Below, piece by piece: positions 41,977 through 59,999 of a stretch of 64,000 nt of DNA. The notes below the pieces were generated by a model. It saw nothing but the letters and a program-made list of their open reading frames with translations. It had not been told where the DNA came from and did no database searches. This stretch comes from an uncultured Alphaproteobacteria bacterium (lineage in GTDB: Bacteria > Pseudomonadota > Alphaproteobacteria > HIMB59 > GCA-002718135): the NCBI GenBank assembly GCA_902592345.1, contig CACJEE010000002.1, positions 37,749 through 101,748 of the forward strand, given 5' to 3'. The first letter of the stretch is position 1, and every line of letters begins with the position of its first letter. A program made the translations under genes and the position numbers.

Positions 41977-41984
41977 ATACCTAA

Positions 41985-43167: not shown

Positions 43168-43220
43168 TGATTGACATATTTATAATTAATAAATGTAAAA
43201 TTTTAACGGGAGGTAATTAT

Positions 43221-45169: not shown

Positions 45170-45727
45170 CTAAGAATTTGCTTGGAACGAATTTTCTACA
45201 TACTTTCGAAAATGCTCAACTGAAGGTGTTTTTTTATTTAATATTTTTGCCTGATCATCAAGGCGTCTCATTTCCACCGCTTCTTTCATTTGTGGTTTAT
45301 TAATAAATTCTTCCGCTTCTTGTTTAGAAAAAATACCACCTTGCACTTTTAAAGATATTTTTGATGCTCCTGATAATTCATCATAATATCCGTCTTCAAC
45401 TGCTGCAAGATATCGCTTTGATGCAACGTGTGCTCTAATCGGGAGTGTTACCTCTTCCCCAAAATATTTTGATAAGTAATCCGCTCCTAAATCTTCATGA
45501 ACACCATCTTTTCCTTGGTGAATGGGATCATTATCTTCATATAAAAGATGACCAATATCATGAAGCAAAGCTGCTGTTATAAAAGCATCTGATTTACCAT
45601 GTTGCTCTGCTAATTCCGCGCATTGAAGGGCGTGCTCTAATTGTGTTACAGCCTCATTGCCGTATTGAATATCGGAACCTTTTTTTTCTAATAATTCAAG
45701 TAAGTAGTTAACAATGTTATCTGACAT
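45170..45727 (-). CDS. phnZ: HD-domain diiron oxygenase, PhnZ-like
   Basis: 185 aa. YGNEAVTQLEHALQCA...LLHDIGH...HVASKRYL closely parallels the PhnZ sequence as recalled (YIGEAINQLEHSLQCA...LLHDLGH...HVAAKRYL). Confidence 0.72.
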   Translation of the reverse strand: MSDNIVNYLLELLEKKGSDIQYGNEAVTQLEHALQCAELAEQHGKSDAFITAALLHDIGHLLYEDNDPIHQGKDGVHEDLGADYLSKYFGEEVTLPIRAHVASKRYLAAVEDGYYDELSGASKISLKVQGGIFSKQEAEEFINKPQMKEAVEMRRLDDQAKILNKKTPSVEHFRKYVENSFQANS

Positions 45728-45886: not shown

Positions 45887-46651
45887 ATGAAATTAAAAAA
45901 TAAAAATGTAATTATTACAGGTGGTGCTTCGGGGATAGGAAAAGCAACTGCAGAATTATTTTGTAATGAAGGCGCAAAAGTTGCGATCATGGATATTAAT
46001 AAAGCTGAGGGAGAAAAGACAGTTAGTCAAATTAATTCAAATAATGAAAAGGCATTTTTCTTTCACACTGATTTAAGAAAATCTAGTGAAGTCAAAAAAT
46101 CAATTAATCAAATTTTAGATTTATTTGGAACACTCAATATTTTGTTTAACCATGCAGGAACAATAATAGTTAAGCCACTTCATGAATCTTCTGAAGAAGA
46201 TTATGATTATTTGATGGATATTAACGTTAGATCAGCCTTTCTTGTTTGCAATGAAGTAATTCCCTCAATGTTAAAAAATAAAGGGGGAAATATAATTATT
46301 ACTTCATCAATTGGAGGAGAAAAAGGCTTTGCTTTAGAATCCTTATACTGCATGACGAAGGGGGCTGTTTTACAATTAGCTAGATCAATTGCTGTTGAAT
46401 ATAGAGATCAGGGAATTAGATGTAATGCAATCTGTCCAGGATTTGTTAAAACTAATCACGGATTGAGAGAAATAAAAGAATTAGATGAGCAAGGACAAAA
46501 TTGGGATGAAAAAGATTTGCATTCTGTTCAGGGAAGAATATGTAAACCAGAAGAGATTGCTTCTGCGGTTTTATACTTAGCGTCTGATGATTCTAGTTTT
46601 GTTAATGGAACTGCTTTGTATGTTGATAATGGTTGGTATGCTAAAGGATAA
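45887..46651 (+). CDS. Classical short-chain dehydrogenase/reductase
   Basis: TGGASGIGKA, NHAG, S...YCMTK. 3 nt upstream of the ABC ATPase. Confidence 0.9.
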   Translation: MKLKNKNVIITGGASGIGKATAELFCNEGAKVAIMDINKAEGEKTVSQINSNNEKAFFFHTDLRKSSEVKKSINQILDLFGTLNILFNHAGTIIVKPLHESSEEDYDYLMDINVRSAFLVCNEVIPSMLKNKGGNIIITSSIGGEKGFALESLYCMTKGAVLQLARSIAVEYRDQGIRCNAICPGFVKTNHGLREIKELDEQGQNWDEKDLHSVQGRICKPEEIASAVLYLASDDSSFVNGTALYVDNGWYAKG

Positions 46652-46654
46652 CAA

Positions 46655-47665
46655 ATGAGTCTCTCACCTAAACTTATTTGTAAAAATGTTTGGAAATTAT
46701 ATGGAGATAATCCAAAAGAATTTTTAAAAAGTCACAATAATAATCCTGATAAAGAAATAATAAAAAAAAGTGGTTACATTCAAGCAATTCGAAATGCCTC
46801 ATTAGAAGTTTATGAAAATGAAATTCTAGTAATAATGGGTCTAAGTGGTTCAGGAAAATCTACTTTGGTTAGATGTATGTCAAGATTAGTTGATCCTACA
46901 ATAGGAGAAATTTTTTTTGAAAATATTGATATGGGAAAGTTATCAAAAAATGAATTAATAGAAATTAGAAGACATAAAATGGGTATGGTGTTCCAACACT
47001 TTGCACTTTTTCCTCACCGAACTGTTATAGAAAATATTGCTTTTCCTTTAGAAGTTCAAGGGATCAAAAGAAAAGAAAGAGAAAAGTCTGCTTTAGAAAT
47101 AATTGATCTAGTAGGATTACAAGGAAGAGAGAATTATTTTCCAAAAGAACTTTCGGGAGGTCAACAACAAAGAGTTGGTATAGGTCGTTCATTAGCTGTT
47201 AAACCAGAGTTATGGTTTTTAGATGAACCATTTTCTGCCTTAGACCCACTAATAAGGAAAGAGATGCAAAATGAGTTTTTAAAAATTCAAAACTCACTTA
47301 AAAAAACTATTATTTTTATAACTCATGATTTTGATGAAGCGATTAAATTAGCAGATAGAATCATTATTATGAATGAAGGAAGAATAGTGCAAATTGGAAG
47401 CCCTGAAGATTTAATTATGAAGCCTGCAGATGATTATGTAAAAGAATTTACTGAAGACCTTCCAAGAGAGAGGTTGTTATCTGTAAAAAGTATAATGGAC
47501 ACTAAAAAAGAGCCTAATAATTCTTCAACAGTTTATGAGGATGAAAAAATATTTTCAATTCTTGAAAAAGTTCTCTCTGAGGGTTCTGTTTCAGTTCTTG
47601 ATAAATCAAATAATATTATTGGCTCACTTAATAAAGAAACAGTCTCAAAATTTATTAATAATTAA
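46655..47665 (+). CDS. proV: Glycine betaine/quaternary-amine type ABC ATPase
   Basis: GLSGSGKST, LSGGQQQR, WFLDEP. Short CBS-like C-terminus. Confidence 0.85.
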   Translation: MSLSPKLICKNVWKLYGDNPKEFLKSHNNNPDKEIIKKSGYIQAIRNASLEVYENEILVIMGLSGSGKSTLVRCMSRLVDPTIGEIFFENIDMGKLSKNELIEIRRHKMGMVFQHFALFPHRTVIENIAFPLEVQGIKRKEREKSALEIIDLVGLQGRENYFPKELSGGQQQRVGIGRSLAVKPELWFLDEPFSALDPLIRKEMQNEFLKIQNSLKKTIIFITHDFDEAIKLADRIIIMNEGRIVQIGSPEDLIMKPADDYVKEFTEDLPRERLLSVKSIMDTKKEPNNSSTVYEDEKIFSILEKVLSEGSVSVLDKSNNIIGSLNKETVSKFINN

Positions 47666-47727
47666 ATATTATATAAATAATCTTTATACTTTTATAAAAA
47701 AATCTAAGAGCTATTGTGCGTTTTTAG

Positions 47728-47753
47728 TAGTTTTATTTAATAGTTTTATTTAA
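47728..47753. repeat. Perfect tandem duplication of 13 bp (tagttttatttaa x2)
   Basis: Read directly in the 119-bp proV-proX spacer. Confidence 0.9.
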
Positions 47754-47784
47754 TATTTTGTAAAATTTATTACTGGGAGGTACA

Positions 47785-48732
47785 ATGAAAATTCTTAAAA
47801 ATAAATTTAATATATTATTAAGTTTTATTTTTATTCTATTTGCACAAAATATATATGCAGTAGAATCAAAAGATCCAATTAAGCTAACTTTGCATGATTG
47901 GACAGGTCAATTGATTACAACTAATATTATGGCTGAAGTTCTTAAGGAAGCAGGCTACAATATAGAACTTGTTCCGGCAGATTATATTGCACAATTTGCA
48001 GGTCTTCAGACAGGCGATCTTCATGTAGCAATGGAAATGTGGGAAACAACTGGTCGTGATGCAATCGATGAGTATACTGCTGACGGAAGAGTAGTCAATG
48101 TAGGTAGTACAGGAATGGATGCAATAGAAGAATGGTGGTATCCTTCTTACATGAAAGAAAAATGTCCTGGACTTCCAAATTGGGAAGCTCTTAATGATTG
48201 TGCAGAAGCTTTTTCTACACCTGAAACATCTCCAAAAGGAAGATATTTGGGTGGACCAGTAACTTGGGGTGGTTATGATGATGAACGTGTTGAAGCGCTT
48301 GAGTTAGATTGGGAAGTAATTCATGCAGGAACCGATGGTGCTCTTTTTGGTGAATTAGAGTCTGCTTATCAGAGAAAAGCTCCAATAATGTTATGGGTTT
48401 ATGCTCCTCATTGGGCTCCATCAAAGTATGATGGAGAATTTGTAGAATTTCCACCATACACGACTGAGTGTTATACAGATCCGTCTTGGGGTATAAATAA
48501 AAATGCTGCTTATGATTGTGGTAAACCGAGAGGTCCTATTTGGAAAGTTGCTTCAAGCATGCTTAAAGATAAATGGCCAGGTGCTTACGATGCAGTAGAA
48601 GCATTTACACTTGATAGTAATGAAATGGGAAATCTGGTTGCAGCTGTTGATCTTGATGGCAATACTGTAGAAGCTGTTGTCGCAGAATGGATGGCTAACA
48701 ATAAAGATAGATGGGGTACTTGGATAAAATAA
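47785..48732 (+). CDS. proX: Glycine betaine-type (OpuAC/ProX family) substrate-binding protein
   Basis: Signal peptide. LTLHDWTGQLITTNIMAEVLKEAGY and EMWETTG. Trp-rich. Confidence 0.85.
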   Translation: MKILKNKFNILLSFIFILFAQNIYAVESKDPIKLTLHDWTGQLITTNIMAEVLKEAGYNIELVPADYIAQFAGLQTGDLHVAMEMWETTGRDAIDEYTADGRVVNVGSTGMDAIEEWWYPSYMKEKCPGLPNWEALNDCAEAFSTPETSPKGRYLGGPVTWGGYDDERVEALELDWEVIHAGTDGALFGELESAYQRKAPIMLWVYAPHWAPSKYDGEFVEFPPYTTECYTDPSWGINKNAAYDCGKPRGPIWKVASSMLKDKWPGAYDAVEAFTLDSNEMGNLVAAVDLDGNTVEAVVAEWMANNKDRWGTWIK

Positions 48733-48753
48733 CCCTTTAATCTTAATTTTTTA

Positions 48754-48781
48754 GGGGGATTTATATCCCCCTTCTTATTTT
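48754..48781 (+). terminator. Intra-operon hairpin/terminator between proX and proW
   Basis: GGGGGAT-TTAT-ATCCCCC followed by TTCTTATTTT. Confidence 0.75.
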
Positions 48782-48786
48782 ACAAT

Positions 48787-50775
48787 ATGCAGAAAAAAAA
48801 ATTATCAAACAAAATTATTTTTATTTCTCTAACTGTCTTAACTTTTTTTTTGTATTGGTATGGCAAAGAAATAGCAAACTACTTAGATAGTAAATGGCTA
48901 GTAAAGTATCCAAAGCATTATTCATTTCCTTTTGCAATTTATACTTCAACATTTGTTAAATGGTTAATTAATGATGCTAATTTTTGGCTATTTACTTTTA
49001 ATGATCTTACTCGTTTCTTTGCTTGGATTATAGAACAGCCTTACAATATAGTTTTAGCTATATTTTCTAAAGGAATATTAAAAGGACAAGGTCAAGATGC
49101 GATCCAAATCATGGAACCATTAAGTTGGATTTCAGTTGTTGGTATTTTTTTTACCCTTGCGCTTTATACAAGAGATAAGTTTTTAATAATACTTGTTGTT
49201 CTATCAATAGTTTATTTGGCTGTATTTGATCAATGGCAAAGTTCAATGATTACATTATCTTCAATAATTATTGCTGTACCAATTGGAGTTGTTCTAGGAA
49301 TATTATTAGGAATATTATCCTACAAGTCGAAAATTTTAGAAAAAATTATAACTCCAATATTAGACCTAATGCAAACAGTCCCGGTCTTTGCTTACTTAGT
49401 TCCCATACTTGTAATGTTTGGTTTTGGGCCAGTTTCTGCATTAATTGCAACCATAATATATGCAATGCCACCAATGGTGAGAACTACCCTTTTAGCACTT
49501 AACAGTATTGATCCACAATTAAAAGAGAGTGGGCTCATGTCTGGTTGCACAGAAAGACAATTAATGTGGAAGGTTCTGATTCCAGTATCTAAACCAACTT
49601 TACTTATAGGCGTCAATCAAGTGATTATGCTATCACTTAATATGGTTATCATAGCTTCTATGATAGGCGCAGGGGGATTAGGTTACGACGTATTGGCCTC
49701 TCTTAGAAGATTAGATATTGGAGGAGGTATAGAGTCAGGTATAGCTATCGTAGTTATAGCAATAGCTTTAGATCGCTTGAGTCAATCATTTGCAAACTTA
49801 CCCACTCTCTCAAAAAAAACACAGAAAACTTTTTTTACTAAATATAAAAAAATAATTTTCTTAATTTTTTATATAATTGGAATTTATATATTAGGTAATT
49901 TTTTTACTTTTTTTAAATTATTCCCTGAAGAGTTAATGATTAATACTTCATTATTTTGGGAAGAACTAGTTAAATATATAAATATAAATTATTTTGATAA
50001 TCTAGAGAGTTTCAAAATAACTCTATTAACTTTTTTCATGCTTCCAATAAAAAAATTCTTTTTAGGAATTCCCTGGCCATGGTTTATTTTTATTATTACA
50101 ATTATTGGATGGTATTTTGGAAAGACTAAATTAGCATTACTTTGTTTAATGATGTCAATTTTTATAGTGACAACTGGTCTTTGGGAAAAAGCGATGATTA
50201 CACTTTATTTATGTGGTTCAAGTGTAATAATAGCATCTATTATAGGAATTCCTCTAGGGATATGGGCAGGCTTAAGCAGCAGGGCAAATAAAATATTAAC
50301 TGCTTTTATTGATACTCTTCAAACTTTACCAAGTTTTGTTTACTTGATACCTGTTGTAATGCTATTTCGTGTAGGTGACTTTACAGCAATGATTGCTGTT
50401 ATACTTTATGCACTTGCTCCTGCTGTTAGATATACAGCTCATGGAGTAAAAAATATTAATAATCAAATTGTGGAGGCAGCGTTAATAAGTGGATGTTCTC
50501 AAAGACAGTTATTATTTAAAATTAGATTACCTTTAGCCTTGCCAGAAATTTTACTAGGTATTAACCAAACTATAATGCTTGCTTTATCTATGTTAGTTAT
50601 TACTGCATTAGTTGGAACTAGAGATCTTGGTCAAGAAGTTTACATAGGTTTAACTAAAGCAGATATAGGAAGAGGTTTGGTTGCCGGACTATGTGTAGCT
50701 TTTATATCTATAATTGCAGATAGAATAATTAAAGCTGGAAGCAATAATCTTAAAAATAAATATGGAATCAAATAA
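48787..50775 (+). CDS. proW: Fused tandem-duplicated betaine-type ABC permease
   Basis: 662 aa. Two homologous halves, each with DxxQTxPxFVYLxP and an EAA-like loop (SGCTERQLMWKV / SGCSQRQLLFKI). Confidence 0.85.
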   Translation: MQKKKLSNKIIFISLTVLTFFLYWYGKEIANYLDSKWLVKYPKHYSFPFAIYTSTFVKWLINDANFWLFTFNDLTRFFAWIIEQPYNIVLAIFSKGILKGQGQDAIQIMEPLSWISVVGIFFTLALYTRDKFLIILVVLSIVYLAVFDQWQSSMITLSSIIIAVPIGVVLGILLGILSYKSKILEKIITPILDLMQTVPVFAYLVPILVMFGFGPVSALIATIIYAMPPMVRTTLLALNSIDPQLKESGLMSGCTERQLMWKVLIPVSKPTLLIGVNQVIMLSLNMVIIASMIGAGGLGYDVLASLRRLDIGGGIESGIAIVVIAIALDRLSQSFANLPTLSKKTQKTFFTKYKKIIFLIFYIIGIYILGNFFTFFKLFPEELMINTSLFWEELVKYININYFDNLESFKITLLTFFMLPIKKFFLGIPWPWFIFIITIIGWYFGKTKLALLCLMMSIFIVTTGLWEKAMITLYLCGSSVIIASIIGIPLGIWAGLSSRANKILTAFIDTLQTLPSFVYLIPVVMLFRVGDFTAMIAVILYALAPAVRYTAHGVKNINNQIVEAALISGCSQRQLLFKIRLPLALPEILLGINQTIMLALSMLVITALVGTRDLGQEVYIGLTKADIGRGLVAGLCVAFISIIADRIIKAGSNNLKNKYGIK

Positions 50776-50796
50776 ATATTACTTTATTTGATCAAT

Positions 50797-51894
50797 ATGG
50801 ATAAAAAGTTATTAACTCCCGGACCTCTTACTACTTCACTGAGCACTAAAGAGGCAATGCTTCATGATTGGGGATCACGTGATCAAAAATTCATCGATCT
50901 AAATCAATCTATTCGTGACTCATTAATTAAGTTAATTGATGGGGAAGGCAATTATCAATGTGTGCCTATGCAAGGAAGTGGAACATTTGCTGTTGAATCG
51001 ATGATTAGTTCACTAACACCAAAAGATGCTAACATTTTAATTTTAATTAATGGTGCTTACGGTCAACGAATGAAAAAAATGTGTGCGTACTTAAATAGAA
51101 ATATGATTGACTATGAAGTAGCTGAACATGAGCCTCATAATATGAGTAAATTAGAAGAGATTATTGATGCTAATAAGCAGCTTACTCACGTTTTTGCTGT
51201 TTATTGTGAAACTACATCAGGAATCCTAAACCCTATCAATGATATTGCTGATTTAGTTAAGAAAAAAAACTTATCTTTATTTATAGATGCGATGAGTGCC
51301 TTTGGTGCTCTTCCTCTTAGTAGTAAAGATATTACTTTTGATGCTGTTGCAGCTTCATCTAATAAATGTTTAGAGGGCGTTCCTGGTGTTGGATTTATTT
51401 TAATGAAAAATAATGTGATTGAAAAAGCAAAAGGGAACTGTCATTCATTAAGTTTGGATTTGTATGATCAATGGACAGCAATGGAGCAAAATAAACAATG
51501 GCGCTTTACACCACCTACACATGTATTAGCCGCATTCAATCAAGCAATTACTGAACATCAAAATGAAGGTGGAATTGAAGGGCGACACAAAAGATATAAA
51601 AATAATTGTAAAATCATATGTGATGGAATGAAAGAGATTGGCTTTGAACAACTCTTACCTGATGAGTTGCAAGCACCAATTATCATAACTTTTAAACAAC
51701 CAAGTGATCCAAACTTTAATTTTCAAAAATTTTACAATGCTCTTAGTGATAAAGATTTTCTAATTTATCCTGGAAAATTAACTGTCGCTGATACTTTTCG
51801 TATTGGATGTATTGGTAATTTAAATGAACAAGATATGAGAGATACACTTACAGCTGTTAAAGAGGTAATCAACGATTTAAAGATAAGTTTATGA
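50797..51894 (+). CDS. phnW: 2-aminoethylphosphonate-pyruvate transaminase
   Basis: Class V aminotransferase with PhnW-like N-terminus KLLTPGPLTTSLSTKEAMLHDWGSRD. ATG 50797 preferred over TTG 50788. Confidence 0.87.
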   Translation: MDKKLLTPGPLTTSLSTKEAMLHDWGSRDQKFIDLNQSIRDSLIKLIDGEGNYQCVPMQGSGTFAVESMISSLTPKDANILILINGAYGQRMKKMCAYLNRNMIDYEVAEHEPHNMSKLEEIIDANKQLTHVFAVYCETTSGILNPINDIADLVKKKNLSLFIDAMSAFGALPLSSKDITFDAVAASSNKCLEGVPGVGFILMKNNVIEKAKGNCHSLSLDLYDQWTAMEQNKQWRFTPPTHVLAAFNQAITEHQNEGGIEGRHKRYKNNCKIICDGMKEIGFEQLLPDELQAPIIITFKQPSDPNFNFQKFYNALSDKDFLIYPGKLTVADTFRIGCIGNLNEQDMRDTLTAVKEVINDLKISL

Positions 51895-52529
51895 GTAGTT
51901 CAGATGCGGTTGAAATTCCTTTAATTAAAGCTACCAATGAAGCACTTAAAGGGTATGGGTATTTAATCGACTCATATGAAAATAATGATATTGAAATTGT
52001 CACTTGGCCCAAACAGGGTTGGCGTGAAATTGATGAAGGTACAGGCAATGAAGGTGGGAGTACAGAGGGATCTTTCGATGCTTGGTGGGAAGGAAGTACA
52101 CTGTTCGGACAAAATAATGCTGTTCAACATAACAGCGACTATGAAGTAGACGGAAAATACATACTTGGTCATTCCTTACCCCCTGATAGTGAAGCTACAA
52201 CAAAATACATACCGCCAAAAAATATTTATATTTGGCATGTTAATTATCATCCTGATGGTGGACAGCTTTTTTATCCATCAACAAAAAGTCCTTTTATTTC
52301 ACCTTTAGCCTTACCAGGAGATGATGTGCAAGTTGGTGATTTTAAAGCTTTTTATTTTGATGGTTCGCAAGGGTTATACATTCATCCTAACATATGGCAT
52401 GAAGGAGTTTTCCCAATCGAAGAAAAATGCTCTTTTCAGGGTCGGCAAGGCAAAGTGCATGCAAGAGTGAGTATTGATTTACAAAAAGAATTTAAGAAAT
52501 ATATTTTTTTTAAAACTTCTTTAAAATAA
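51891..52529 (+). CDS. Cupin-fold protein, ureidoglycolate lyase (AllA)-like
   Basis: HPDGGQLFYP and NIWHEG motifs resemble the AllA family. ATGA overlap with the phnW stop. Confidence 0.55.
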   Translation: MSSSDAVEIPLIKATNEALKGYGYLIDSYENNDIEIVTWPKQGWREIDEGTGNEGGSTEGSFDAWWEGSTLFGQNNAVQHNSDYEVDGKYILGHSLPPDSEATTKYIPPKNIYIWHVNYHPDGGQLFYPSTKSPFISPLALPGDDVQVGDFKAFYFDGSQGLYIHPNIWHEGVFPIEEKCSFQGRQGKVHARVSIDLQKEFKKYIFFKTSLK

Positions 52530-52533: not shown

Positions 52534-53640
52534 TTATTTTTTTTCAATAACAAAAATTTCATTATTAAAATAAAGACCTTTGTTTTTAGTAACTATTTTT
52601 TGTACAACATCTTCGTAATTTTTAGATTTTTCCACTTTCATCACTTTATCATCATCTATTTGATTAACATAAATAGATGCATTCCAAGCTGAAAATATTA
52701 AAGAGGTTGCTATGCTCCCACTTAGTTCATTGGGTAAAGCTCTAAGCTTACATTTAATAATCTTTTTATCTTTAAAATTTAATTTAGCTAATAAATTTTT
52801 ATCTAAATTTTTTTTCAAATAGTGAATTATAGAATTGCTTAATGAAGGAAATGGATTTTCTTTTGGCCAGATTTTTTTTATAATTTTATTAGCTGGATCA
52901 TTCCCTGAGGCGTGAATAGTTAATAATTTCCCTTTAGGTTTTAGAGCATCAATCATAGGGCGTATGACATATTTTACTTTTTTTTCTGCTGAAATTCTTG
53001 ATCTATAAGGTTGTGAAGCAATTATTAGATCAAATTTATTTGCACCATTATTTATTCTGGGAATTAATTCATGCACATTAAATTCTTGATCTTCTCTATA
53101 TATAATCATTACTGATGGCTCTTTATAAGTTGGATTGCCATTTTTTTTATTAATTTCAATATTCCATTTTTTTTCTAAAAAAGAATTTTGACTTCTTAAT
53201 TGTTCTGCAAAATCAAGTGAGGTATCTCCTTTAAGCTTAACAACATGCCAATTAATCTTCTTCTGTTTTGTGGGATTATTAGATTTTAGATTTGCTGCTT
53301 CTGCATAATGCAGGTTTGATATAACAAATACTGTATTTTTGTGTTCAACAAATCTATCTGGTAATTTTTCTAAACCAAGTCTTACATCCTCTATACTAAT
53401 TTCCTTTGTAGAAACAAAAAGAGGTATATTTGGTTTTGCTTCATGACATTGTCTCATTACATTCATTAATAATGATCCGTCACCCATGCCTGCATCAAAT
53501 ATTTTAATGCCAGGTTTTGTTGGTTTAATTTTATTTATGTGAGGACGAATGAAATCAGCAATCTGATTTTTTTCATTAGTTGTTGTAACAAACAGCAAAT
53601 ATTTTTGCCTGTTATCATAAAATCTAAAATTTTTTTTCAT
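52534..53640 (-). CDS. Class I SAM-dependent methyltransferase-like protein, unknown substrate
   Basis: Motif I IFDAGMGDGS and an acidic post-I region. Last gene of the 55838->52534 operon. Confidence 0.6.
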   Translation of the reverse strand: MKKNFRFYDNRQKYLLFVTTTNEKNQIADFIRPHINKIKPTKPGIKIFDAGMGDGSLLMNVMRQCHEAKPNIPLFVSTKEISIEDVRLGLEKLPDRFVEHKNTVFVISNLHYAEAANLKSNNPTKQKKINWHVVKLKGDTSLDFAEQLRSQNSFLEKKWNIEINKKNGNPTYKEPSVMIIYREDQEFNVHELIPRINNGANKFDLIIASQPYRSRISAEKKVKYVIRPMIDALKPKGKLLTIHASGNDPANKIIKKIWPKENPFPSLSNSIIHYLKKNLDKNLLAKLNFKDKKIIKCKLRALPNELSGSIATSLIFSAWNASIYVNQIDDDKVMKVEKSKNYEDVVQKIVTKNKGLYFNNEIFVIEKK

Positions 53641-53641: not shown

Positions 53642-54754
53642 CTAAAACAATCCCATTAGTTTAGCAGACGAGATAAAAGCATCTTTATTCCCAATAAAAT
53701 TTTTACCTCTTTCACCTAAGAAAGCATCATCTACAATATTATTCCACTCTTGAACAGGAACTTTTATTTCATTTAAGTTTAATGGAACTTCCAAAGAGCG
53801 CATAAATTCACTTAATTTTAAAGATGAATTTTCTAAATTATCATTAAAGATTAATTGTAATCTTTCTTCAGCAATTTTATCTATTCCAATCATGCTTCTA
53901 GTAACAATCGGAAGGGTAAATGAACAAGCAATACCATGTTGAATACCATAATTTAGAGTAATTGGATAAGACAAGTTATGAGCAATAGCAGTTTTAGTAT
54001 TTGAAAATGCTAATCCTGCATGCACACATGCACGCGCAATATTAGCACGTAATTCAATATTTTTTAAATCTTTTGCTAGTAATGGTAAATTTTCTAAAAC
54101 CAATTTTGATGCTTGAATTGCATGTGATGCTGAAACTGGATTAGCGTTAACATTCCATATACTCTCCATCGAGTGTGACAATGCATCTAAACCAGTTGAA
54201 ATTGTAAGACCAAGAGGTTTGTCAATCATAATTGACGGATCAATAATTGCTTTTTCTGCGTAAAGTGTTTTATGTGCTAAAGAAAGTTTGTTATTTTTTT
54301 CTTTATCCCAGATTGTAGCCCAACAAGTAAGTTCACTAGACGTGCCAGATGTCGTAGGAACAGCAATAATTTTAATAGGATTTTCAACTTTCGGATTTTT
54401 TTTATTTCTTACAAAATCAGTTAAGTATTCCTGTTTATCTCTAAAAGCAGCAATGGCTTTTGCTGTATCCGTTACAGAACCTCCACCAATAGCTAAAATA
54501 TAATCAACAGTTTTATCAATTGAGGCAAATTTATTTTGAAGTTCTAATATATCTTTATAGTCTGGGTTAGGTTGAACATCTGTCATAATAGACAGTGGTG
54601 GATTAGAGGAAGAACTCAATTCATCACTATATTTTTTAAAAATTTCTTCTGGGTGAGTAATAATTATATAGGATTTATTTTTAAGTGCTGAATGTACTTC
54701 TTTAAATTTATTTTCACCAAATATAATCTCTACCGGATTATAGTAACTCCACAT
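53642..54754 (-). CDS. Iron-containing alcohol dehydrogenase, phosphonate-associated type (putative phosphonoacetaldehyde reductase / 2-HEP dehydrogenase)
   Basis: MWSYYNPVEIIFG start, GGGSVTD, Fe-ADH His cluster (LSHSMES, AHNLSYP). Confidence 0.78.
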   Translation of the reverse strand: MWSYYNPVEIIFGENKFKEVHSALKNKSYIIITHPEEIFKKYSDELSSSSNPPLSIMTDVQPNPDYKDILELQNKFASIDKTVDYILAIGGGSVTDTAKAIAAFRDKQEYLTDFVRNKKNPKVENPIKIIAVPTTSGTSSELTCWATIWDKEKNNKLSLAHKTLYAEKAIIDPSIMIDKPLGLTISTGLDALSHSMESIWNVNANPVSASHAIQASKLVLENLPLLAKDLKNIELRANIARACVHAGLAFSNTKTAIAHNLSYPITLNYGIQHGIACSFTLPIVTRSMIGIDKIAEERLQLIFNDNLENSSLKLSEFMRSLEVPLNLNEIKVPVQEWNNIVDDAFLGERGKNFIGNKDAFISSAKLMGLF

Positions 54755-54758: not shown

Positions 54759-55838
54759 TTAAATTGATTTTGCAGCTTTTGACAAAATTGTCATTTTTTC
54801 AATTGCTTGCTCTCTTGTAAAGAATCCTAAACCACAATCTGGGGCAGCAATTAAACGATGCTCATCAATATGTTCTAAAGAGTCTTTCATTCGAGTTCTC
54901 ACTTCCTCTACAGACTCCATTCTGCTTTTAGCAATATCAATAAATCCAAAAATAACTTTTGTTTTTTTAAATTTTTCTAAAAGATTTAAATCATTATGTC
55001 TGTGAGAGTCTTCTAGAGATACTTCATCAATAGTAGAGTCATCAACTAAAGTAGCAATTCTATCATATGCATCTAAGTCTGCTTTTTTATATCCTTCAGA
55101 GTCAAGACAGTTTGGATAACCACAACAGATGTGACAAACCCTTTGCACATCTTTAGGGATTCCGTGCATCATTCTCTCTAAGTTCTCCATGCCATATGTA
55201 TTAGCTTCTTCTGGTTTTCTTGCAAAAACCGGTTCATCAATTTGAATATATTTACAACCAGCATCAACGAGTGCTTTTATTTCTTCGTTTAGAGCTAATG
55301 CTAAATCAAAACCCAGTTTTTTAAGATCATCATAATAGTTGTTTGCAATTGAGTCGGTTATTGTCATAGGACCAGGAAGAGTAATCTTTACCGGATTTTT
55401 AGTAAATTGTTGAGCGCTTTTCCAGTCTAATGGCATGCGTATCTCTTTACTTGAAACTGGACCAATTATTGTTGGAACACTTGCTTCAAAAGCTCCTTGT
55501 CTTACTGACTTATGAGTTACTTCTTCAAAGCTTATATTATTTAGAAAACGACATTGGTGAAAAACATAACTTTCTCTTCTTACTTCCCCATCTGTTGGTA
55601 TATCAATACCGGCATTAACTTGATCTATTATAACTTCTTTAATTGCATCTAAAAATAAGTTTTCTACATCATCACCAGCTTTCTCTATTGCTTTTTCGTA
55701 GGCACCAGGTGACCAATTTGCCAATAATCCTTTAGCAGCTTTTTTTTCTTCTTCAGATTTAGTACCTAAAAACCAATCATTAATAGGAGTATTTTTTGGT
55801 TTTGGATAAGCGCCGATGGTAGTTGTAATTAGAGGCAT
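54759..55838 (-). CDS. Core MetE-like (cobalamin-independent methionine synthase C-terminal domain) zinc methyltransferase
   Basis: 359 aa single (beta/alpha)8 domain. Zinc-ligand pattern CHICC ... LED ... PDCGL is intact. Confidence 0.78.
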   Translation of the reverse strand: MPLITTTIGAYPKPKNTPINDWFLGTKSEEEKKAAKGLLANWSPGAYEKAIEKAGDDVENLFLDAIKEVIIDQVNAGIDIPTDGEVRRESYVFHQCRFLNNISFEEVTHKSVRQGAFEASVPTIIGPVSSKEIRMPLDWKSAQQFTKNPVKITLPGPMTITDSIANNYYDDLKKLGFDLALALNEEIKALVDAGCKYIQIDEPVFARKPEEANTYGMENLERMMHGIPKDVQRVCHICCGYPNCLDSEGYKKADLDAYDRIATLVDDSTIDEVSLEDSHRHNDLNLLEKFKKTKVIFGFIDIAKSRMESVEEVRTRMKDSLEHIDEHRLIAAPDCGLGFFTREQAIEKMTILSKAAKSI

Positions 55839-55862
55839 AATATATTCTCCGTTGATTCTTAC

Positions 55863-55893
55863 AAATAAAACAGCGGCTTTTATAAAGCCGCTG
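55863..55893 (-). terminator. Strong hairpin + U-tract between the SBP gene and the MetE-like gene
   Basis: Minus strand: CAGCGGCTTT-ATA-AAAGCCGCTG followed by TTTTATTT. Confidence 0.8.
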
Positions 55894-55924
55894 CAATAAA
55901 ATGTTAATAATTAATCAATCTTTT

Positions 55925-57318: not shown

Positions 57319-58758
57319 TTACCAAGGTAGGGAGAAAGTCTTCACATTAGTAAAGCTCTTCATCGCCTCAATAACACCCTCTTTGTATCCCAATCCCGAG
57401 TCTTTAATTCCCCCAAAAGGAGACATTTCAATTCTATATCCAGGTACTTCCCAAATATTGACAGTTCCAACATTTAAGTTTTGAATATATTTTTTTGCTC
57501 TCATAAAATTATTAGTGCACACGCCTGAAGATAATCCAAAAGCAGTTGAATTTGAGATCTTGATGACAGATTCATCATCATTGGGAACGCGTATAATTGG
57601 AATAACAGGTCCAAAAGTTTCTTCCAATACTAATTCACTTTTAGGATCAACATTATCAATTACTATAGGAGGCAATAACGCCCCTTTTCTTCCAGGATGA
57701 TATAAAATTTTCGCACCATCTGCTTCTGCCATAGAAACTCTTTTATCAAATAGTTCAGCTGCTTGAGCATTAACAACGGTACCTAAATCAGTTTCCATGC
57801 TCATTGGATCTCCAAACTTAATTTTTTTAGCTCTTTCCAAAGCCATTTCAACAAACTGATCAGCAATTTTTTCTTGAACAAGAATTCTTTTAACTGCAGT
57901 ACAGCGTTGTCCTGAATTTTTTGTTGCACCAGTTACTGCTAATTCAACAGCTTTCTTTAAATCATCTGAATCTAAATCATTTAAAACAATTAGGGGATCA
58001 TTTCCGCCAAGTTCAAGAACAGTTCTTTTGTATCCTGCCTGTTCAGCAATTAGTTTTCCAACACCAACACTTCCCGTAAAAGTAATAAGATCAATATTGG
58101 GATTTTTTATCATTTCTGAACCGATATCTTGTGGCCATCCTGTAACAACAGAAAACATTTCTGGTGGTAGACCAGCTTCATACAAAACATCCGCAAGAAC
58201 CATTGCTGTTAATGGAGTTAACTCTGTCTGTTTGCAAACTGTACAATTATTCGTTGCAATAGAAGGTGCAATTTTGTGAGCCACCATATTTAAAGGGTGA
58301 TTAAATGGTGTTATTGCCGAAATAGCTGTTAATGGTTCTCTTATTGTAAATATCTTTCTAGCTTTACCGTGTGGAGTTAAATCACATGAAAAAATTTCTC
58401 CATCATCATATATACACAATTGTGCTGTTAAAGAAAAAACATCAAATGCTCTGCCGACTTCATACAATGAGTCTTGTTTTGAAATTCCAAGTTCTAAGGT
58501 AATAATATCAGAAATCTCTTCTTTTCTCTTTACAAGTACTTCAGCTGCAGTTTGAAGTATTTTTTGTCTTTCATATCGTGTAAGCTTTGATTGATAATTT
58601 GCTGCAATTTCAAGGGCCTGTCTTGCATGTTCAGCATTTCCTGCAGGAACCGTACCAATGACTTCACCCGTAAAAGGATACTCAACATCAATTGTTTTTT
58701 CAAAAGTTACTTTTTTGCCAGCAATTCGCATAGCTTCATTAATCATTTTCTTTTCCAT
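57319..58758 (-). CDS. phnY: Aldehyde dehydrogenase, phosphonoacetaldehyde dehydrogenase-like
   Basis: ALDH motifs ELGGNDP and catalytic Cys in GQRCTA. TAATG overlap with phnA. Confidence 0.8.
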
Positions 58759-59999
58759 TACAGAGCTCCATTAATTGCATAGTAGAATGCATCATAATTA
58801 TATAACTGTTTTTCATTATTGTAATTTTGTATTTTTAGATTTGATATAAAAGGCACTTCTCGCTCATGCAAACCACCATGAGAACGTAAAGGTTCATTTA
58901 ATCCAGAAAGATTATGTTTATCTTCCGATGATCCAATGGTCATAAATTCTGAGGACATACATATTATATCACCCATTCGATCAGGTGGTAGATTGTATGT
59001 ATTGCAACCTTCGTCTTTGGTTAACACTACCTCTATATCCTTAATTTCTTTAATTGATTTTATAACGTCATTAACTTTAGTTTTATCTTCAAGATAAATT
59101 GTTGCAAATGAACCTAATGATCCATGATGAACAACATAAGGATCAGTTATTGGTAAAATAACTTTTACTACATTTGGTTCAAATTTTTTATCCAGATAGT
59201 CTTGTAAAAAAATTGCATTGGGTGAACCATCGTCTTTTGATTTAGGTTTCATACCATGATCAGCCGTAATAATTATTGATACATCACCCTTATTTAAAAG
59301 GCCAATATATTTATCAAACATAGCATAAAACTTATTAGCCACTTCATTTCCTGGTGCATACTTATGTTGAATATAATCTGTTGTAGATAAGTACATTATA
59401 TTTGGTTTAAATTCCTCAAGTAGTTTTACTCCAGCTGCCATGACAAATTCGGAAAGACCTTGAGAGTATACTTCCGGTACAGGCATTCCTAACCATTCAT
59501 TAACATTATCAATACCATTATGTTCTTTTGTTGCCTGATCAGATTTTTCCGCCGAAAAACATATTGCTCGATTATCATCAAATCCTAAACCATTTCCCAA
59601 AAGAGTTCTAAGTTTATCTTTTGCAGTAACAAGAGCAATCTTTGATCCAGAATTATAAAATTTTTCAAATATTGTTGGCGCACGCATATATTTTGGATCA
59701 TTCATCATTACTTCTTCCCCTGTTTCAGGAGTGTAAAAGAAATTACCACATATGCCGTGAACAGAGCTAGGTTGCCCTGTTACAATTGATATATTATTTG
59801 GATTTGTAAAACTTGGGATAGCACTATGAACAAGTAAACTTTGTCCATTAGAAATTAATGCATCAATATTAGGTGTAAGATTTAGTTTTGATGCCTCTTC
59901 AAGATACTCTTTTTGGCTTCCATCAAGACAAATAACTATAGCTGTCTTAGAAAATGTGCTTGGATATTCTCTGTTATTAATTACTAAATTTTCAGACAC
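58758..59999 (-). CDS. phnA: Phosphonoacetate hydrolase
   Basis: Alkaline-phosphatase superfamily. Long collinear identity to Pseudomonas PhnA as recalled: [59 protein letters not shown]. Confidence 0.92.

What the first reader, a model, noticed from the sequence alone, without database searches (positions are those of the whole stretch)
51891..52529. AllA-like cupin translationally coupled to PhnW
The 212-aa ORF overlaps the phnW stop by ATGA. It carries HP..GQ.F.P and .WH... motifs reminiscent of ureidoglycolate lyase-type cupins. It is too short to be an MpnS/HepD-type bicupin. Known PhnW partners are PhnX or PhnY/PhnA; a cupin lyase-like partner is not part of any described AEP route. Candidate roles are C-N lyase or isomerase chemistry on a substituted aminophosphonate (N-carbamoyl or N-acyl, or alpha-hydroxy) that feeds or drains the transaminase. 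This would be analogous to the accessory Pbf enzymes that widen AEP-pathway substrate range.
Basis: inference. Interest (0 to 1): 0.65.

Follow-up and report, generated by a model that had tools for sequence, protein, structure and literature searches.

The report
DsyD-like cupin in phosphonate-catabolism clusters
A small barrel-shaped enzyme gene fused back-to-back with the aminophosphonate transaminase gene phnW in abundant ocean bacteria (SAR11) is not the purine enzyme it is auto-annotated as, but an unstudied, recurring add-on to phosphonate-degrading gene clusters whose nearest studied relative is an oxygen-using decarboxylase.

Summary
ORF 51891-52529 (212 aa) is real, overlaps a bona fide phnW by ATGA, and carries the stated motifs.

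It has the AllA fold but is not a ureidoglycolate lyase. It scores 21-34 bits against AllA equivalog cutoffs of 160-315. AllA's E-R-H-P-L motif reads N-Y-H-P-D here. It has a ~45-residue insertion, and no purine-catabolism gene was recognised in the neighbourhoods annotated.

Its closest characterised relative is DsyD, the DMSHB decarboxylase domain of DsyGD (hhalign 98.7%, full length, shared signature residues).

In the SAR11-type clade, 59 of 60 loci have phnW directly upstream (gap -17 to +11 nt). Elsewhere the same family sits in other aminophosphonate modules: PhnX-like-cupin-PbfD, PbfD-PhnX-cupin, TIGR03329-PhnW-cupin, and PhnZ/cupin-phosphodiesterase-ceramidase. Many members are unlinked, including 40 of 43 soil and peat loci. 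The active-site residues are invariant in linked and unlinked copies.

I read it as an undescribed, optional "Pbf-type" accessory enzyme of aminophosphonate catabolism. My best guess at the chemistry (about 0.25) is metal/O2-dependent oxidation of an alpha-hydroxy aminophosphonate such as HAEP. A non-redox carbinolamine lyase and an AEP hydroxylase remain live rivals.

The parts
51891..52529 (+). DsyD-like / AllA-fold single-domain cupin (212 aa). Putative metal site H120, Q125, H170, with N118 and D122 nearby. Subfamily-specific invariant residues are W39, R45, N75, Q186, H190 and E200.
51891..51894 (+). ATGA stop/start overlap between phnW and the cupin (translational coupling).
   Evidence: The gap ranges from -17 to +11 nt in the 60 loci where phnW lies directly upstream (59 SAR11-clade loci plus betaproteobacterium L079), and the -4 overlap recurs in L079.
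50788..51894 (+). phnW, 2-aminoethylphosphonate:pyruvate transaminase (368 aa).
   Evidence: NF010006, TIGR02326 and TIGR03301 all above their cutoffs.
45170..45727 (-). PhnZ-family HD-domain phosphonate oxygenase (185 aa), divergent from the SDR...phnW-cupin gene string.
   Evidence: TIGR03276 206.9 bits, just under the 214.6 cutoff. Present in 53 of 59 SAR11-clade loci.
45887..46651 (+). SDR oxidoreductase, first gene of the plus-strand string. Present only in the island variants that carry the ProVXW-type transporter.
46655..50775 (+). ProV / ProX / fused ProW-type ABC importer (betaine/quaternary-amine type) immediately upstream of phnW.
   Evidence: translations. One search shows the same module in L011 and L012.
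52534..53640 (-). 368-aa class-I SAM methyltransferase-fold protein (closest to histamine N-methyltransferase), convergent with the cupin. The stop codons lie 4 nt apart.
53642..54754 (-). PhpC/PsrA-type Fe-alcohol dehydrogenase, a candidate 2-hydroxyethylphosphonate dehydrogenase.
   Evidence: TIGR03405 365.7 bits, below the 423.7 cutoff; PMC13576164.
57319..58758 (-). phnY, phosphonoacetaldehyde dehydrogenase.
   Evidence: TIGR03250 792 bits against a cutoff of 635.65.
58758..59999 (-). phnA, phosphonoacetate hydrolase.
   Evidence: TIGR02335 468 bits against a cutoff of 407.55.

Best explanation
SHOWN.
- The ORF is a real, transcribed gene encoding a single-domain cupin with the AllA fold.
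- It belongs to a distinct, widespread subfamily of about 210-230 aa, found in bacteria of many phyla and also in a scallop, a brachiopod and protists.
- The closest characterised relative of this subfamily is DsyD, the DMSHB decarboxylase domain of the DMSP-synthesis enzyme DsyGD. It is not ureidoglycolate lyase.
- In SAR11-type genomes it is the distal gene of a phnW-cupin pair with overlapping or nearly abutting stop and start codons. The pair lies in a phosphorus-scavenging island with a PhnZ-like HD oxygenase, PhnY/PhnA, a PhpC-type dehydrogenase and three ABC importers.
- In unrelated lineages the same family is embedded in other aminophosphonate-catabolic modules.

INFERRED.
- It is an optional, recurrent ("Pbf-type") accessory enzyme of aminophosphonate catabolism.
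- It binds a divalent metal through H120, Q125 and H170, the residues it shares with both AllA and DsyD. N118 and D122 replace AllA's Glu and Leu, as they also do in DsyD.

MOST LIKELY CHEMISTRY (speculative, about 0.25). By analogy with DsyD (R-CH(OH)-COO- + O2 -> R-COO- + CO2 + H2O), the enzyme chelates an alpha-hydroxy-acid-type aminophosphonate through its hydroxyl and an acid oxygen and oxidises it with O2.
- The most context-consistent substrate is 1-hydroxy-2-aminoethylphosphonate (HAEP), or a form of it that PhnZ, PbfA and PhnW do not take, such as the S-enantiomer or N-methylated HAEP.
- The product would be glycine (or a derivative) plus phosphate.
- The enzyme would be self-sufficient. 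That would explain why it occurs with PhnW, PbfD/PhnX or PhnZ modules, and also alone.

Sub-confidences: real gene 0.97; not AllA 0.9; DsyD-like 0.85; aminophosphonate accessory role in this island 0.7; the specific oxidative alpha-hydroxy-phosphonate chemistry about 0.25.
For: Identity.
- PF04115 is matched only partially, and the NCBIfam AllA equivalogs score 21-34 bits against cutoffs of 160-315.
- Sequence hits in the PDB are AllA only, and only over the core.
- The AF2 model (pLDDT 90.8) matches AllA structures with target-normalised TM-scores of 0.63-0.73, and nothing else is close.
- hhalign of the family profile against G. sunshinyii DsyD gives probability 98.7%, E = 2.6e-16, over 177 columns. 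This spans the full length, including the N-terminal insertion that AllA lacks. BLASTP of the window protein against DsyGD gives E = 3e-13.
- DsyD shares W39-P40, G52, N75, N118, H120, an acidic residue at 122, Q125, W169-H170, Q186 and E200, whereas AllA has E-R-H-P-L...W-H-H.
- DsyGD converts DMSHB to DMSP in plain buffer (PMC11306096).

Context.
- phnW lies directly upstream in 59 of 60 SAR11-clade loci, with a gap of -17 to +11 nt. A PhnZ-like HD gene is present in 53 of 59.
- The betaproteobacterium L079 has PhnW-cupin with an ATGA overlap, together with HD, PhnY and PhnA.
- Other architectures are PhnW-cupin-PhnX (L065), cupin-PhnX (L063) and TIGR03329-PhnW-cupin (L008, L014, L062).
- PhnX-like(TIGR03351)-cupin-PbfD(TIGR03364) occurs in L082 and L091, with an HD gene nearby in L091.
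- PbfD-PhnX-cupin occurs in L107.
- In Thalassomonas the cupin is divergent from TonB-PhnX-TIGR03329-GntR.
- In Chitinophagales a PhnZ gene (TIGR03276, above cutoff) is divergent from cupin-phosphodiesterase-ceramidase.
- Phn-linked members are scattered across the family tree.
- All key residues are invariant in 16 linked and 34 unlinked members, and no column discriminates the two sets.
- A metatranscriptome contig spans the phnW/cupin junction.
- No other oxygenase candidate was found among the genes annotated in the SAR11 island. The conserved 368-aa neighbour is a methyltransferase fold.
Against: - No activity has been measured for any member of this subfamily.
- The isolated DsyD domain and two single-domain algal homologues were inactive on DMSHB (PMC11306096).
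- I could not obtain model coordinates, so the metal site is inferred from motif alignment only.
- Co-occurrence with PhnZ in most SAR11 loci makes a PhnZ-like outcome look redundant unless the substrates differ.
- The oxidative-HAEP reading does not explain the very tight translational coupling to PhnW in particular.
- Many family members are not phn-linked: 40 of 43 soil and peat loci, Paraburkholderia megaplasmids, and several GTDB genomes.
- The conserved residues shared with DsyD would most conservatively bind an alpha-hydroxy-carboxylate rather than an alpha-hydroxy-phosphonate.
- H190 is Asp in DsyD.
Confidence: 0.35

Rival explanations
1. A non-redox, AllA-type metal-assisted lyase that breaks a carbinol(amine) adduct, R-CH(OH)-NHR' -> R-CHO + H2NR'. 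It would speed release of phosphonoacetaldehyde (and other aldehydes) from the imine or carbinolamine products of amine-oxidising or deaminating enzymes. Alternatively it would cleave a stable N-substituted alpha-hydroxy compound, which is essentially the first reader's C-N lyase idea.
For: - AllA is a Ni-dependent carbinolamide lyase (PMC3793230), and the AllA/DUF4867/KdgF group is proposed to share R-CH(OH)-X cleavage (PMC11968277).
- The most general neighbour theme is amine-to-aldehyde enzymes. These are PhnW; PbfD/TIGR03329 in the same operon; flavin amine oxidases upstream in L104, L106 and L112 and near a eukaryotic copy; and Rieske oxygenases directly upstream in L123 and L124 and nearby in L146.
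- The His, Gln and His shared with AllA are retained.
- This reading would explain why the gene is optional: it would accelerate a step that also happens spontaneously.
Against: - Transaminases do not release free imines, so the tightest partner (PhnW) is not explained.
- The PhnZ-only context in Chitinophagales produces no aldehyde.
- The subfamily is closer to DsyD than to AllA over its full length.
- Amine oxidase or Rieske homologues were found near only 18 of the ~175 cupin-bearing loci, and no chance expectation was computed.
Confidence: 0.2
2. An Fe(II)/O2-dependent AEP C1-hydroxylase, functionally analogous to PhnY*, that makes (R)-HAEP for the neighbouring PhnZ-like HD oxygenase.
For: - An HD gene is present in 53 of 59 SAR11-clade loci and is directly divergent from the cupin in Chitinophagales. 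One is also present near the PhnX-like-cupin-PbfD operon and in L079 and L123.
- No PhyH/TauD hydroxylase was seen in the SAR11 island, and the conserved unknown neighbour is a methyltransferase.
- The sequence contains an H120-x-D122...H170 pattern.
- There is an O2-dependent precedent in the family, DsyD.
Against: - The cupin also occurs with PhnW/PhnY/PhnA or PhnX and no HD gene in the locus (L012, L014, L062, L065-L067), and in many orphan contexts.
- PhnZ-family genes commonly lack any adjacent hydroxylase, for example inside C-P lyase operons or alone with SusC/D, so a missing partner is not required.
- Hydroxylating an unactivated C-H needs a co-reductant, and there is no evidence for a 2OG site.
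- The fold search found no 2OG oxygenases.
Confidence: 0.12
3. A DsyD-type oxidative decarboxylase acting on an alpha-hydroxy-CARBOXYLATE. One version takes a phosphonate-bearing substrate: phosphonolactate -> phosphonoacetate + CO2, which feeds PhnA. The other takes a non-phosphonate alpha-hydroxy acid, in which case the gene merely travels with the phn island.
For: - The metal and acid-binding signature is shared with DsyD.
- PhnA-PhnY-PhnW-cupin forms a single gene string in L066 and L067.
- Many family members are unlinked to phn genes.
- The extra basic invariant residues (R45, K/R185, H190, where DsyD has Q/R, T/R and D) could bind a distal phosphonate.
Against: - PhnX-type clusters carrying the cupin showed no PhnA within the sequence held, some of it on short contigs (L063, L065, L082/L091, L087, L107).
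- A pure hitch-hiker would not be expected to turn up in five or more different phosphonate architectures across phyla, or to keep a -17 to +11 nt junction with phnW in 59 loci.
Confidence: 0.15
4. A bona fide ureidoglycolate lyase (AllA) serving purine/allantoin nitrogen recovery.
For: PF04115 is hit above its gathering score, the fold is AllA-like, and public sources name homologues 'ureidoglycolate lyase'.
Against: - All eight NCBIfam AllA models score 21-34 bits against cutoffs of 160-315.
- Only the core aligns.
- E-R-H-P-L is replaced by N-Y-H-P-D, and W-H-H by W-H-E/Q.
- There is an insertion of about 45 aa.
- No allantoin or purine gene was recognised in the neighbourhoods annotated.
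Confidence: 0.02

Closest known systems
DsyD, the C-terminal PF04115 domain of DsyGD (DMSHB decarboxylase of DMSP biosynthesis; Gynuella sunshinyii and Oscillatoriales; PMC11306096)
   Same: The profile aligns over the full length, including the N-terminal insertion (98.7%, E = 2.6e-16). The signature N-x-H-x-[D/E]-x-G-Q ... W-H ... Q ... E is shared, as are W-P, G52 and N75. The fold family is the same.
   Different: - The window protein stands alone rather than being fused to a DsyG methyltransferase, and the neighbouring methyltransferase is unrelated to DsyG.
- H190 is Asp in DsyD, and R45 and K/R185 are more basic here.
- Identity is only about 25% (34% over the C-terminal core).
- The genomic context is phosphonate catabolism, not DMSP synthesis.
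- Single-domain algal homologues lacked DMSHB decarboxylase activity.
AllA / DAL3 ureidoglycolate lyase (EC 4.3.2.3; PDB 1XSQ, 1YQC, 2BDR)
   Same: Same cupin fold (target-normalised TM-score 0.63-0.73). Shared H-P-x-G-x-Q-x-F-x-P and W-H core motifs, which are probably metal ligands. Same Pfam family.
   Different: - The window protein has 212 aa against about 160-170, with an insertion of about 45 aa.
- E-R...L is replaced by N-Y...D.
- Equivalog cutoffs are missed by a factor of 5-10.
- There are no purine-catabolic neighbours.
- There are additional invariant residues: R45, Q186, H190 and E200.
Pbf accessory enzymes of AEP catabolism (PbfA lyase, PbfB/C/D FAD oxidoreductases, PbfF racemase, PbfG dehydrogenase; Peracchi laboratory)
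   Same: The genomic behaviour is the same: recurrent but optional, found in more than one type of AEP cluster, and spread across phyla. It often sits in the same operon as PbfD or PhnW.
   Different: The protein family is unrelated (a cupin). No substrate or activity is known. The Pbf papers I searched do not mention it. Unlike the Pbf enzymes, it is also frequent outside phosphonate clusters and in eukaryotes.
PhnZ / TmpB HD-domain di-iron oxygenases
   Same: If the favoured chemistry is right, the net reaction would be the same (alpha-hydroxy-aminophosphonate + O2 -> amino acid + Pi). The two are frequently neighbours.
   Different: The fold and metal centre are completely different: a mononuclear cupin against a di-iron HD domain. 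Co-occurrence argues for distinct substrates.
DUF4867 (SqvB/SftX) cupins of sulfoglycolysis (PDB 9GYY)
   Same: It is a distant structural relative (Foldseek E = 6e-3). It poses the same puzzle: a metal-binding AllA-like cupin that recurs in catabolic clusters for an anionic C-X (sulfonate or phosphonate) compound where every main step already has an enzyme.
   Different: There is no detectable sequence similarity. DUF4867 has an E-x-H-x3-E...H metal site, and its pathway is different.

Membership tests
AllA ureidoglycolate lyase (EC 4.3.2.3) | Scores above the curated equivalog cutoffs of the NCBIfam AllA models | tested here: not met
   Eight models score 21-34 bits against cutoffs of 160-315.
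AllA ureidoglycolate lyase (EC 4.3.2.3) | PF04115 domain / AllA cupin fold | tested here: met
   PF04115 42.8 bits (gathering score 23), but only profile positions 73-139 of 162 are matched. Foldseek top hits are 2bdr, 1xsq and 1yqc, with target-normalised TM-scores of 0.63-0.73.
AllA ureidoglycolate lyase (EC 4.3.2.3) | Core motif E-R-H-P-x-G-x-Q ... W-H-H and a length of about 160-170 aa without insertion | tested here: not met
   The motif is N-Y-H-P-D-G-G-Q ... W-H-E/Q. The protein has 212 aa, and residues ~30-105 have no AllA counterpart in the alignments.
AllA ureidoglycolate lyase (EC 4.3.2.3) | Gene neighbourhood of allantoin/purine catabolism | tested here: not met
   No allantoinase, allantoicase or related families appeared in the neighbourhoods that were annotated. 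Only a subset of the ~175 loci was annotated, and one search listed just the top 25 of 82 families.
AllA ureidoglycolate lyase (EC 4.3.2.3) | Ni-dependent release of urea from (S)-ureidoglycolate | not testable with these tools
   Requires an enzyme assay (the defining biochemistry is in PMC3793230).
DsyD (DMSHB decarboxylase domain of DsyGD) | Full-length homology to the DsyD domain | tested here: met
   hhalign probability 98.7%, E = 2.6e-16, 177 columns, family profile 36-226 against DsyD 19-201. BLASTP E = 3e-13.
DsyD (DMSHB decarboxylase domain of DsyGD) | Signature residues conserved among the three active DsyGD enzymes | tested here: inconclusive
   N118, H120, acidic 122, Q125, W169, H170, Q186, E200, W39 and N75 are shared. 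H190 is Asp in DsyD, and positions 45 and 185 differ.
DsyD (DMSHB decarboxylase domain of DsyGD) | Fusion to, or partnership with, a DsyG MTHB S-methyltransferase | tested here: not met
   The window protein stands alone. The adjacent 368-aa methyltransferase matches DsyG only at SAM motif I (probability 10.6%).
DsyD (DMSHB decarboxylase domain of DsyGD) | DMSHB -> DMSP + CO2 activity | not testable with these tools
   Requires an assay. Single-domain algal homologues were inactive (PMC11306096).
Pbf-type accessory enzymes of AEP catabolism (operational class) | Recurrent but non-obligatory presence inside AEP-degradation clusters of more than one type and in several phyla | tested here: met
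   Found with PhnW-PhnY-PhnA(-PhnZ), PhnW-PhnX, PbfD/TIGR03329-PhnX(-like) and PhnZ-phosphodiesterase-ceramidase contexts, in Alpha-, Beta- and Gammaproteobacteria, Bacteroidota and a MAG labelled Cyanobacteria.
Pbf-type accessory enzymes of AEP catabolism (operational class) | Demonstrated conversion of an AEP-related phosphonate into a pathway intermediate | not testable with these tools
   Requires biochemistry.
PhnY* (Fe/2OG AEP hydroxylase) | PhyH/TauD-type double-stranded beta-helix 2OG oxygenase | tested here: not met
   No PF05721 or PF02668 hit, and no 2OG oxygenase among the fold-search hits. The H-x-D...H pattern is present only as a sequence string.
MpnS/HepD 2-HEP dioxygenases | Bicupin of roughly 440 aa acting on 2-hydroxyethylphosphonate (size from my own knowledge) | tested here: not met
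   The model is a single barrel of 212 aa, and neither enzyme appears among the fold hits.

The most novel reading that the evidence does not exclude
The subfamily is a new class of carbon-phosphorus bond-cleaving enzyme. It would be a stand-alone mononuclear-metal cupin that uses O2 to convert an alpha-hydroxy-aminophosphonate into an amino acid plus phosphate. Candidate substrates are HAEP forms that PhnZ and PbfA do not take, such as S-HAEP or N-methyl-HAEP. This is the phosphonate counterpart of DsyD's oxidative decarboxylation. It would be widespread in SAR11 and other bacteria and also present in marine invertebrates and protists.
Probability: 0.15. Interest if true: 0.9.

Novelty: new variant of a known kind. 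Interest (0 to 1): 0.6.

Why it matters
Phosphonates are a major phosphorus source in phosphate-poor oceans, and SAR11 is the most abundant heterotroph there. The hydrolytic and oxidative AEP pathways are regarded as enzymatically complete, apart from accessory "Pbf" enzymes that have been found one at a time by genomic context. This gene has the same signature: it is recurrent, optional and spread across phyla. It is co-translated with phnW in 59 of the 60 SAR11-type loci examined that had enough upstream sequence, and I found no description of it. Public sources that name its homologues call them "ureidoglycolate lyase" (or "hypothetical protein"), which could lead pathway reconstructions to infer purine catabolism wrongly.

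The link to DsyD gives a concrete and testable mechanistic lead, namely O2-dependent oxidation of an alpha-hydroxy acid. It also ties together two poorly understood branches of PF04115. If the enzyme acts on HAEP-type compounds, it would address the open question of how bacteria with PhnZ-type clusters deal with phosphonates that PhnZ and PhnW do not accept. If it cleaves the C-P bond, it would add a new C-P-cleaving enzyme class.

Tried and rejected
- **Bona fide AllA.** Rejected on equivalog scores, motif changes, the insertion and the lack of purine neighbours.
- **The 368-aa conserved neighbour as the missing hydroxylase for PhnZ.** Rejected. It has a class-I methyltransferase fold, closest to histamine N-methyltransferase.
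- **A DsyG-DsyD-like methyltransferase + cupin module**, prompted by methyltransferase genes convergent with the cupin in SAR11 and in Arenicellales L070. Rejected. Only the generic SAM motif matches DsyG.
- **"PhnZ needs a partner, so the cupin is it."** Weakened. PhnZ-family genes on plasmids sit in C-P lyase operons or alone, and only one of the four inspected was next to a TauD-type gene.
- **Specificity-determining positions between phn-linked and unlinked cupins.** None found.
- **A conserved alternative neighbour in the soil and peat clade.** Only weak, heterogeneous recurrences were found: molybdopterin oxidoreductase, amine oxidase, Rieske, PEP carboxylase and SDR.
- **Plasmid collection.** Only seven Paraburkholderia megaplasmids carry the family. 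The one region inspected (H4) had no phn genes.
- **Promoter/terminator scan.** Uninformative in this AT-rich DNA: 38 promoter-like sites against about 47 expected.
- **Rfam.** No RNA families in the window.
- **First genome scan with the 30-sequence alignment.** Failed for lack of a conserved stretch and was repeated with a closer set.
- **Metal-site geometry.** Could not be inspected, because model coordinates are not exposed.
- **PbfA/TauD check.** The aggregate Pfam scan lists only the top 25 of 82 families, so absence is not proven. One locus (L066) has a PhyH-family gene nearby.


Full report
**Observation.** The ORF finder lists 51891..52529 (+), ATG start, 212 aa, directly after 50788..51894 (+). 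The sequence ...GTTTATGAGTAGT... shows the upstream TGA stop overlapping the ATG, which is the ATGA overlap. The upstream gene is a genuine PhnW: NF010006 520.7 bits against a cutoff of 296, and TIGR02326 478.7 against 400.8. PF04115 is hit at 42.8 bits (gathering score 23), but only over residues 117-183, corresponding to profile positions 73-139 of 162. The gene is real. It has 4,896 homologues, 30 invariant columns across 77 sequences at 39-89% identity to the window protein, and an AF2 model with pLDDT 90.8 and pTM 0.89. Contigs from marine metatranscriptomes cover both genes, and one (51658-51930, depth 17) spans the junction.

**Setting.** The window is a Pelagibacterales (SAR11) genome fragment. 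The best matches are GORG single-cell genomes, and named relatives are Pelagibacteraceae or Candidatus Pelagibacter. The cupin lies in a phosphorus-scavenging island downstream of PhoU/PHO4. The island contains:
- a PhnZ-family HD oxygenase at 45170-45727 (-) (TIGR03276 206.9 bits against a cutoff of 214.6);
- an SDR;
- a ProVXW-type ABC importer;
- phnW and the cupin;
- a convergent 368-aa protein;
- a PhpC/PsrA-type Fe-alcohol dehydrogenase, a type recently shown to oxidise 2-hydroxyethylphosphonate (PMC13576164);
- a MetE-like protein and a solute-binding protein;
- PhnY and PhnA, both above their equivalog cutoffs.

Two further ABC systems flank the island.

**What the protein is not.** All eight NCBIfam AllA models score 21-34 bits against cutoffs of 160-315. 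Sequence searches of the PDB find only AllA, and only over the core (E about 4e-7 for the single sequence; E = 4e-14 for the family profile over profile positions 107-189). Those alignments show AllA's E-R-H-P-L-G-T-Q replaced by N-Y-H-P-D-G-G-Q, and W-H-H replaced by W-H-E/Q. The protein also carries about 45 extra residues containing the invariant W39, R45, G52 and F62. The fold is nonetheless AllA-like (Foldseek E 1e-8 to 1e-6, target-normalised TM-score 0.63-0.73). The next hits are the unknown 3D0J and then DUF4867. None of the neighbourhoods I annotated contains allantoin or purine genes. AllA's defining biochemistry is Ni-dependent urea release, encoded in purine clusters (PMC3793230).

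**What it is closest to.** The only paper in the library that mentions PF04115 describes DsyGD. Its C-terminal PF04115 domain, DsyD, converts the alpha-hydroxy acid DMSHB to DMSP. Using the DsyGD sequences from that paper's supplement, the family profile aligns to DsyD over essentially its whole length: hhalign probability 98.7%, E = 2.6e-16, 177 columns, including the N-terminal insertion. BLASTP of the window protein against DsyGD gives E = 3e-13. DsyD shares almost the entire subfamily signature: W39-P40, G52, N75, N118, H120, an acidic residue at 122, Q125, W169-H170, Q186 and E200. Only H190 (Asp in DsyD) and the basic positions 45 and 185 differ. The protein is therefore DsyD-like rather than AllA-like. 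DsyGD made DMSP from DMSHB in plain buffer. The isolated DsyD domain and two single-domain algal homologues were inactive on DMSHB. That DMSHB to DMSP is a four-electron, O2-consuming oxidative decarboxylation is established pathway knowledge plus my own stoichiometry.

**Linkage to phosphonate genes.**
- A scan of GTDB species genomes found at least 584 genomes with a relative, and the top 80 loci were kept.
- In the SAR11-type clade (59-96% identity), 59 of 60 loci with at least 1.2 kb of upstream sequence have phnW directly upstream on the same strand.
- Over the 60 loci with phnW directly upstream (those 59 plus L079), the gap between the phnW stop and the cupin ATG runs from -17 to +11 nt, with a mode of +7.
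- The single exception, a Njordibacter gammaproteobacterium, nests inside the SAR11 clade in a neighbour-joining tree. It looks like a transfer that lost its context.
- A PhnZ-like HD gene is present in 53 of 59 of these loci.

Outside that clade the same family appears in other aminophosphonate modules:
- a betaproteobacterium with AepX-type transporter-PhnW-cupin (again an ATGA overlap), plus HD, PhnY and PhnA;
- Arenicellales with PhnW and PhnY;
- PhnW-cupin-PhnX and cupin-PhnX;
- TIGR03329-PhnW-cupin;
- PhnX-like(TIGR03351)-cupin-PbfD(TIGR03364, 466 bits against 285), with intergenic gaps of 12-15 nt;
- PbfD-PhnX-cupin;
- Thalassomonas TonB receptor-PhnX (314.8 bits against 220)-TIGR03329 (641.7 against 632.8)-GntR, divergent from the cupin;
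- Chitinophagales PhnZ (TIGR03276 230.9 bits against 214.6), divergent from cupin-alkaline-phosphatase-superfamily protein-ceramidase, in a locus with a TonB receptor, a secreted phosphodiesterase and PhoD.

TIGR03364 corresponds to PbfD, the N-methyl-AEP/AEP oxidase (PMC10590968).

**Limits of the linkage.**
- Many members are unlinked. These include about half of the non-SAR11 GTDB loci, Paraburkholderia megaplasmids, and 40 of 43 soil and peat metagenome loci with at least 4 kb of flank.
- Their neighbours are heterogeneous. The only faint theme is amine-oxidising enzymes (flavin amine oxidases, Rieske oxygenases, DAO-type oxidases), seen in 18 loci overall.
- Homologues also occur in a scallop, in Lingula, in a nucleariid protist, and in a gene-dense eukaryote-like contig.
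- Phn-linked members are scattered over the whole tree.
- Every key residue is invariant in 16 linked and 34 unlinked sequences, and no column discriminates the two sets. The family therefore looks isofunctional.

**Mechanistic reasoning.** These points are shown: the fold, the DsyD relationship, the conserved residues and the contexts. These points are inferred:
- H120, Q125 and H170 are shared with AllA and DsyD. They occupy the positions of cupin metal ligands, by analogy with the E-x-H-x3-E...H Fe site of the distant relative DUF4867 (PMC11968277). I take them to bind a divalent metal.
- Replacing AllA's Glu by Asn leaves a neutral 2-His/Gln set. From my memory, this resembles the 2-His-1-Gln Fe site of MpnS. 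Such a site leaves room for a bidentate substrate plus O2.
- DsyD's substrate is an alpha-hydroxy acid carrying an onium group. The context-appropriate analogue is an alpha-hydroxy aminophosphonate, that is HAEP or its derivatives. HAEP is the PhnZ substrate and is known in bacterial sphingophosphonolipids (PMC8154272). The S-enantiomer is thought to be environmentally relevant and is not a PbfA substrate (PMC12366243).
- The DsyD-type reaction transposed to a phosphonate gives a carboxylate plus phosphate.

A self-sufficient enzyme of this kind would fit every context, including orphan copies. Its co-occurrence with PhnZ would reflect different substrate forms. I give this specific chemistry about 0.25.

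The rivals are as follows:
- A non-redox AllA-type carbinolamine lyase acting after amine oxidation or deamination (0.2). It fits the PbfD, amine-oxidase and Rieske neighbours, but not PhnW or the PhnZ-only context.
- An AEP 1-hydroxylase feeding PhnZ (0.12). It fits the HD adjacency, and the 368-aa neighbour is a methyltransferase rather than an oxygenase. However, the cupin occurs without HD, and PhnZ often lacks any partner.
- A DsyD-type decarboxylase of an alpha-hydroxy-carboxylate such as phosphonolactate, or of a non-phosphonate substrate (0.15).
- True AllA (0.02).

**Comparison and novelty.**
- The gene behaves like the Pbf accessory enzymes: recurrent, optional and spread across phyla. 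It belongs to an unrelated fold. It is absent from the four Parma-group phosphonate-cluster papers I searched (three Pbf papers and the 2026 HEP-dehydrogenase paper) and from the marine phosphonate survey.
- Library searches combining cupin or ureidoglycolate lyase with AEP, PhnZ or phosphonoacetaldehyde returned nothing.
- I rate it a new variant of a known kind: a new accessory-enzyme family for a known pathway, and a new branch of the DsyD/AllA cupins.
- Interest is 0.6. It is a well-supported and directly testable lead in globally abundant bacteria, but the chemistry is unresolved and most of the wider family is not phn-linked.
- The most novel reading not excluded is a new cupin-type, O2-dependent C-P-cleaving enzyme (probability about 0.15).

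Noticed in passing
window 52534-53640 (-): A 368-aa protein with no Pfam family, conserved in nearly all SAR11 versions of the island, folds as a class-I SAM methyltransferase. The closest structure is histamine N-methyltransferase, and it also matches the pantaphos methyltransferase HvrF. The role of a small-molecule methyltransferase in a catabolic phosphonate island is unexplained. Its stop codon lies 4 nt from the cupin's stop codon on the opposite strand.
   Followed up: partly
window 46655-50775 (+) and 54759-57178 (-): A ProV/ProX/fused-ProW betaine-type ABC importer lies directly upstream of phnW. A MetE-like (Meth_synt_2-only) protein and a solute-binding protein lie next to the PhpC-type dehydrogenase. 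These modules are variable between SAR11 genomes. They hint at uptake and demethylation of N-methylated or quaternary aminophosphonates.
   Followed up: no
window 40273-44264 and 60165-63140: Two more ABC importers flank the island. One is a fused permease + ATPase + Fe3+/AEP-type binding protein, and the other is an ATPase with two permeases. That makes three transport systems within about 23 kb of phosphonate genes.
   Followed up: no
L089/L090/L099 (Chitinophagales metagenome contigs), about 3.9-9.3 kb of the locus: The operon cupin - alkaline-phosphatase-superfamily protein (298 aa) - alkaline ceramidase is divergent from a PhnZ gene, in a locus with a TonB receptor, a T9SS-secreted phosphodiesterase and PhoD. 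It looks like a sphingophosphonolipid-scavenging locus that lacks phnW.
   Followed up: partly
L070 (Arenicellales) and L088: In two unrelated genomes the cupin lies near peptidase C26/GATase genes, a HAD hydrolase, an aldehyde dehydrogenase and a DAO-GCV_T oxidase (plus an Fe-ADH in L088). A glutamine-synthetase-like gene appears in the pooled scan that included L070. In L070 these sit together with PhnW and PhnY. The set resembles a Puu-type gamma-glutamylation pathway, possibly acting on an aminophosphonate.
   Followed up: no
P0237 (representative-library protein, 418 aa): A natural fusion of this cupin family (residues ~156-261) with a C-terminal glyoxalase/VOC domain.
   Followed up: no
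P0287, P0348, P0309; L092/L093: Family members are encoded in a scallop (Mizuhopecten), a brachiopod (Lingula), the protist Nk52, and a gene-dense eukaryote-like contig with TBP, HMG-box and XPG neighbours and an amine oxidase-cytochrome b5 gene two genes away. From my own knowledge, several of these organism groups are known to make phosphonolipids.
   Followed up: partly
L059 (Candidatus Njordibacter, complete genome): A cupin 72% identical to the window protein nests inside the SAR11 clade. It sits between a polysaccharide lyase and Sel1-repeat and asparaginase II genes, with no phn genes within 10 kb. This is probably a horizontal transfer from SAR11.
   Followed up: partly
L095, L096 (Nostoc and Variovorax plasmids): PhnZ-family HD oxygenase genes are embedded inside C-P lyase (phnG-M) operons. 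In Nostoc the operon also contains a FosA-like glutathione transferase and a GNAT gene.
   Followed up: no
GC-rich loci among L099-L178: A ~320-aa ORF antisense to the cupin recurs in 14 GC-rich loci. It is an artefact of long open antisense frames, not a gene.
   Followed up: yes
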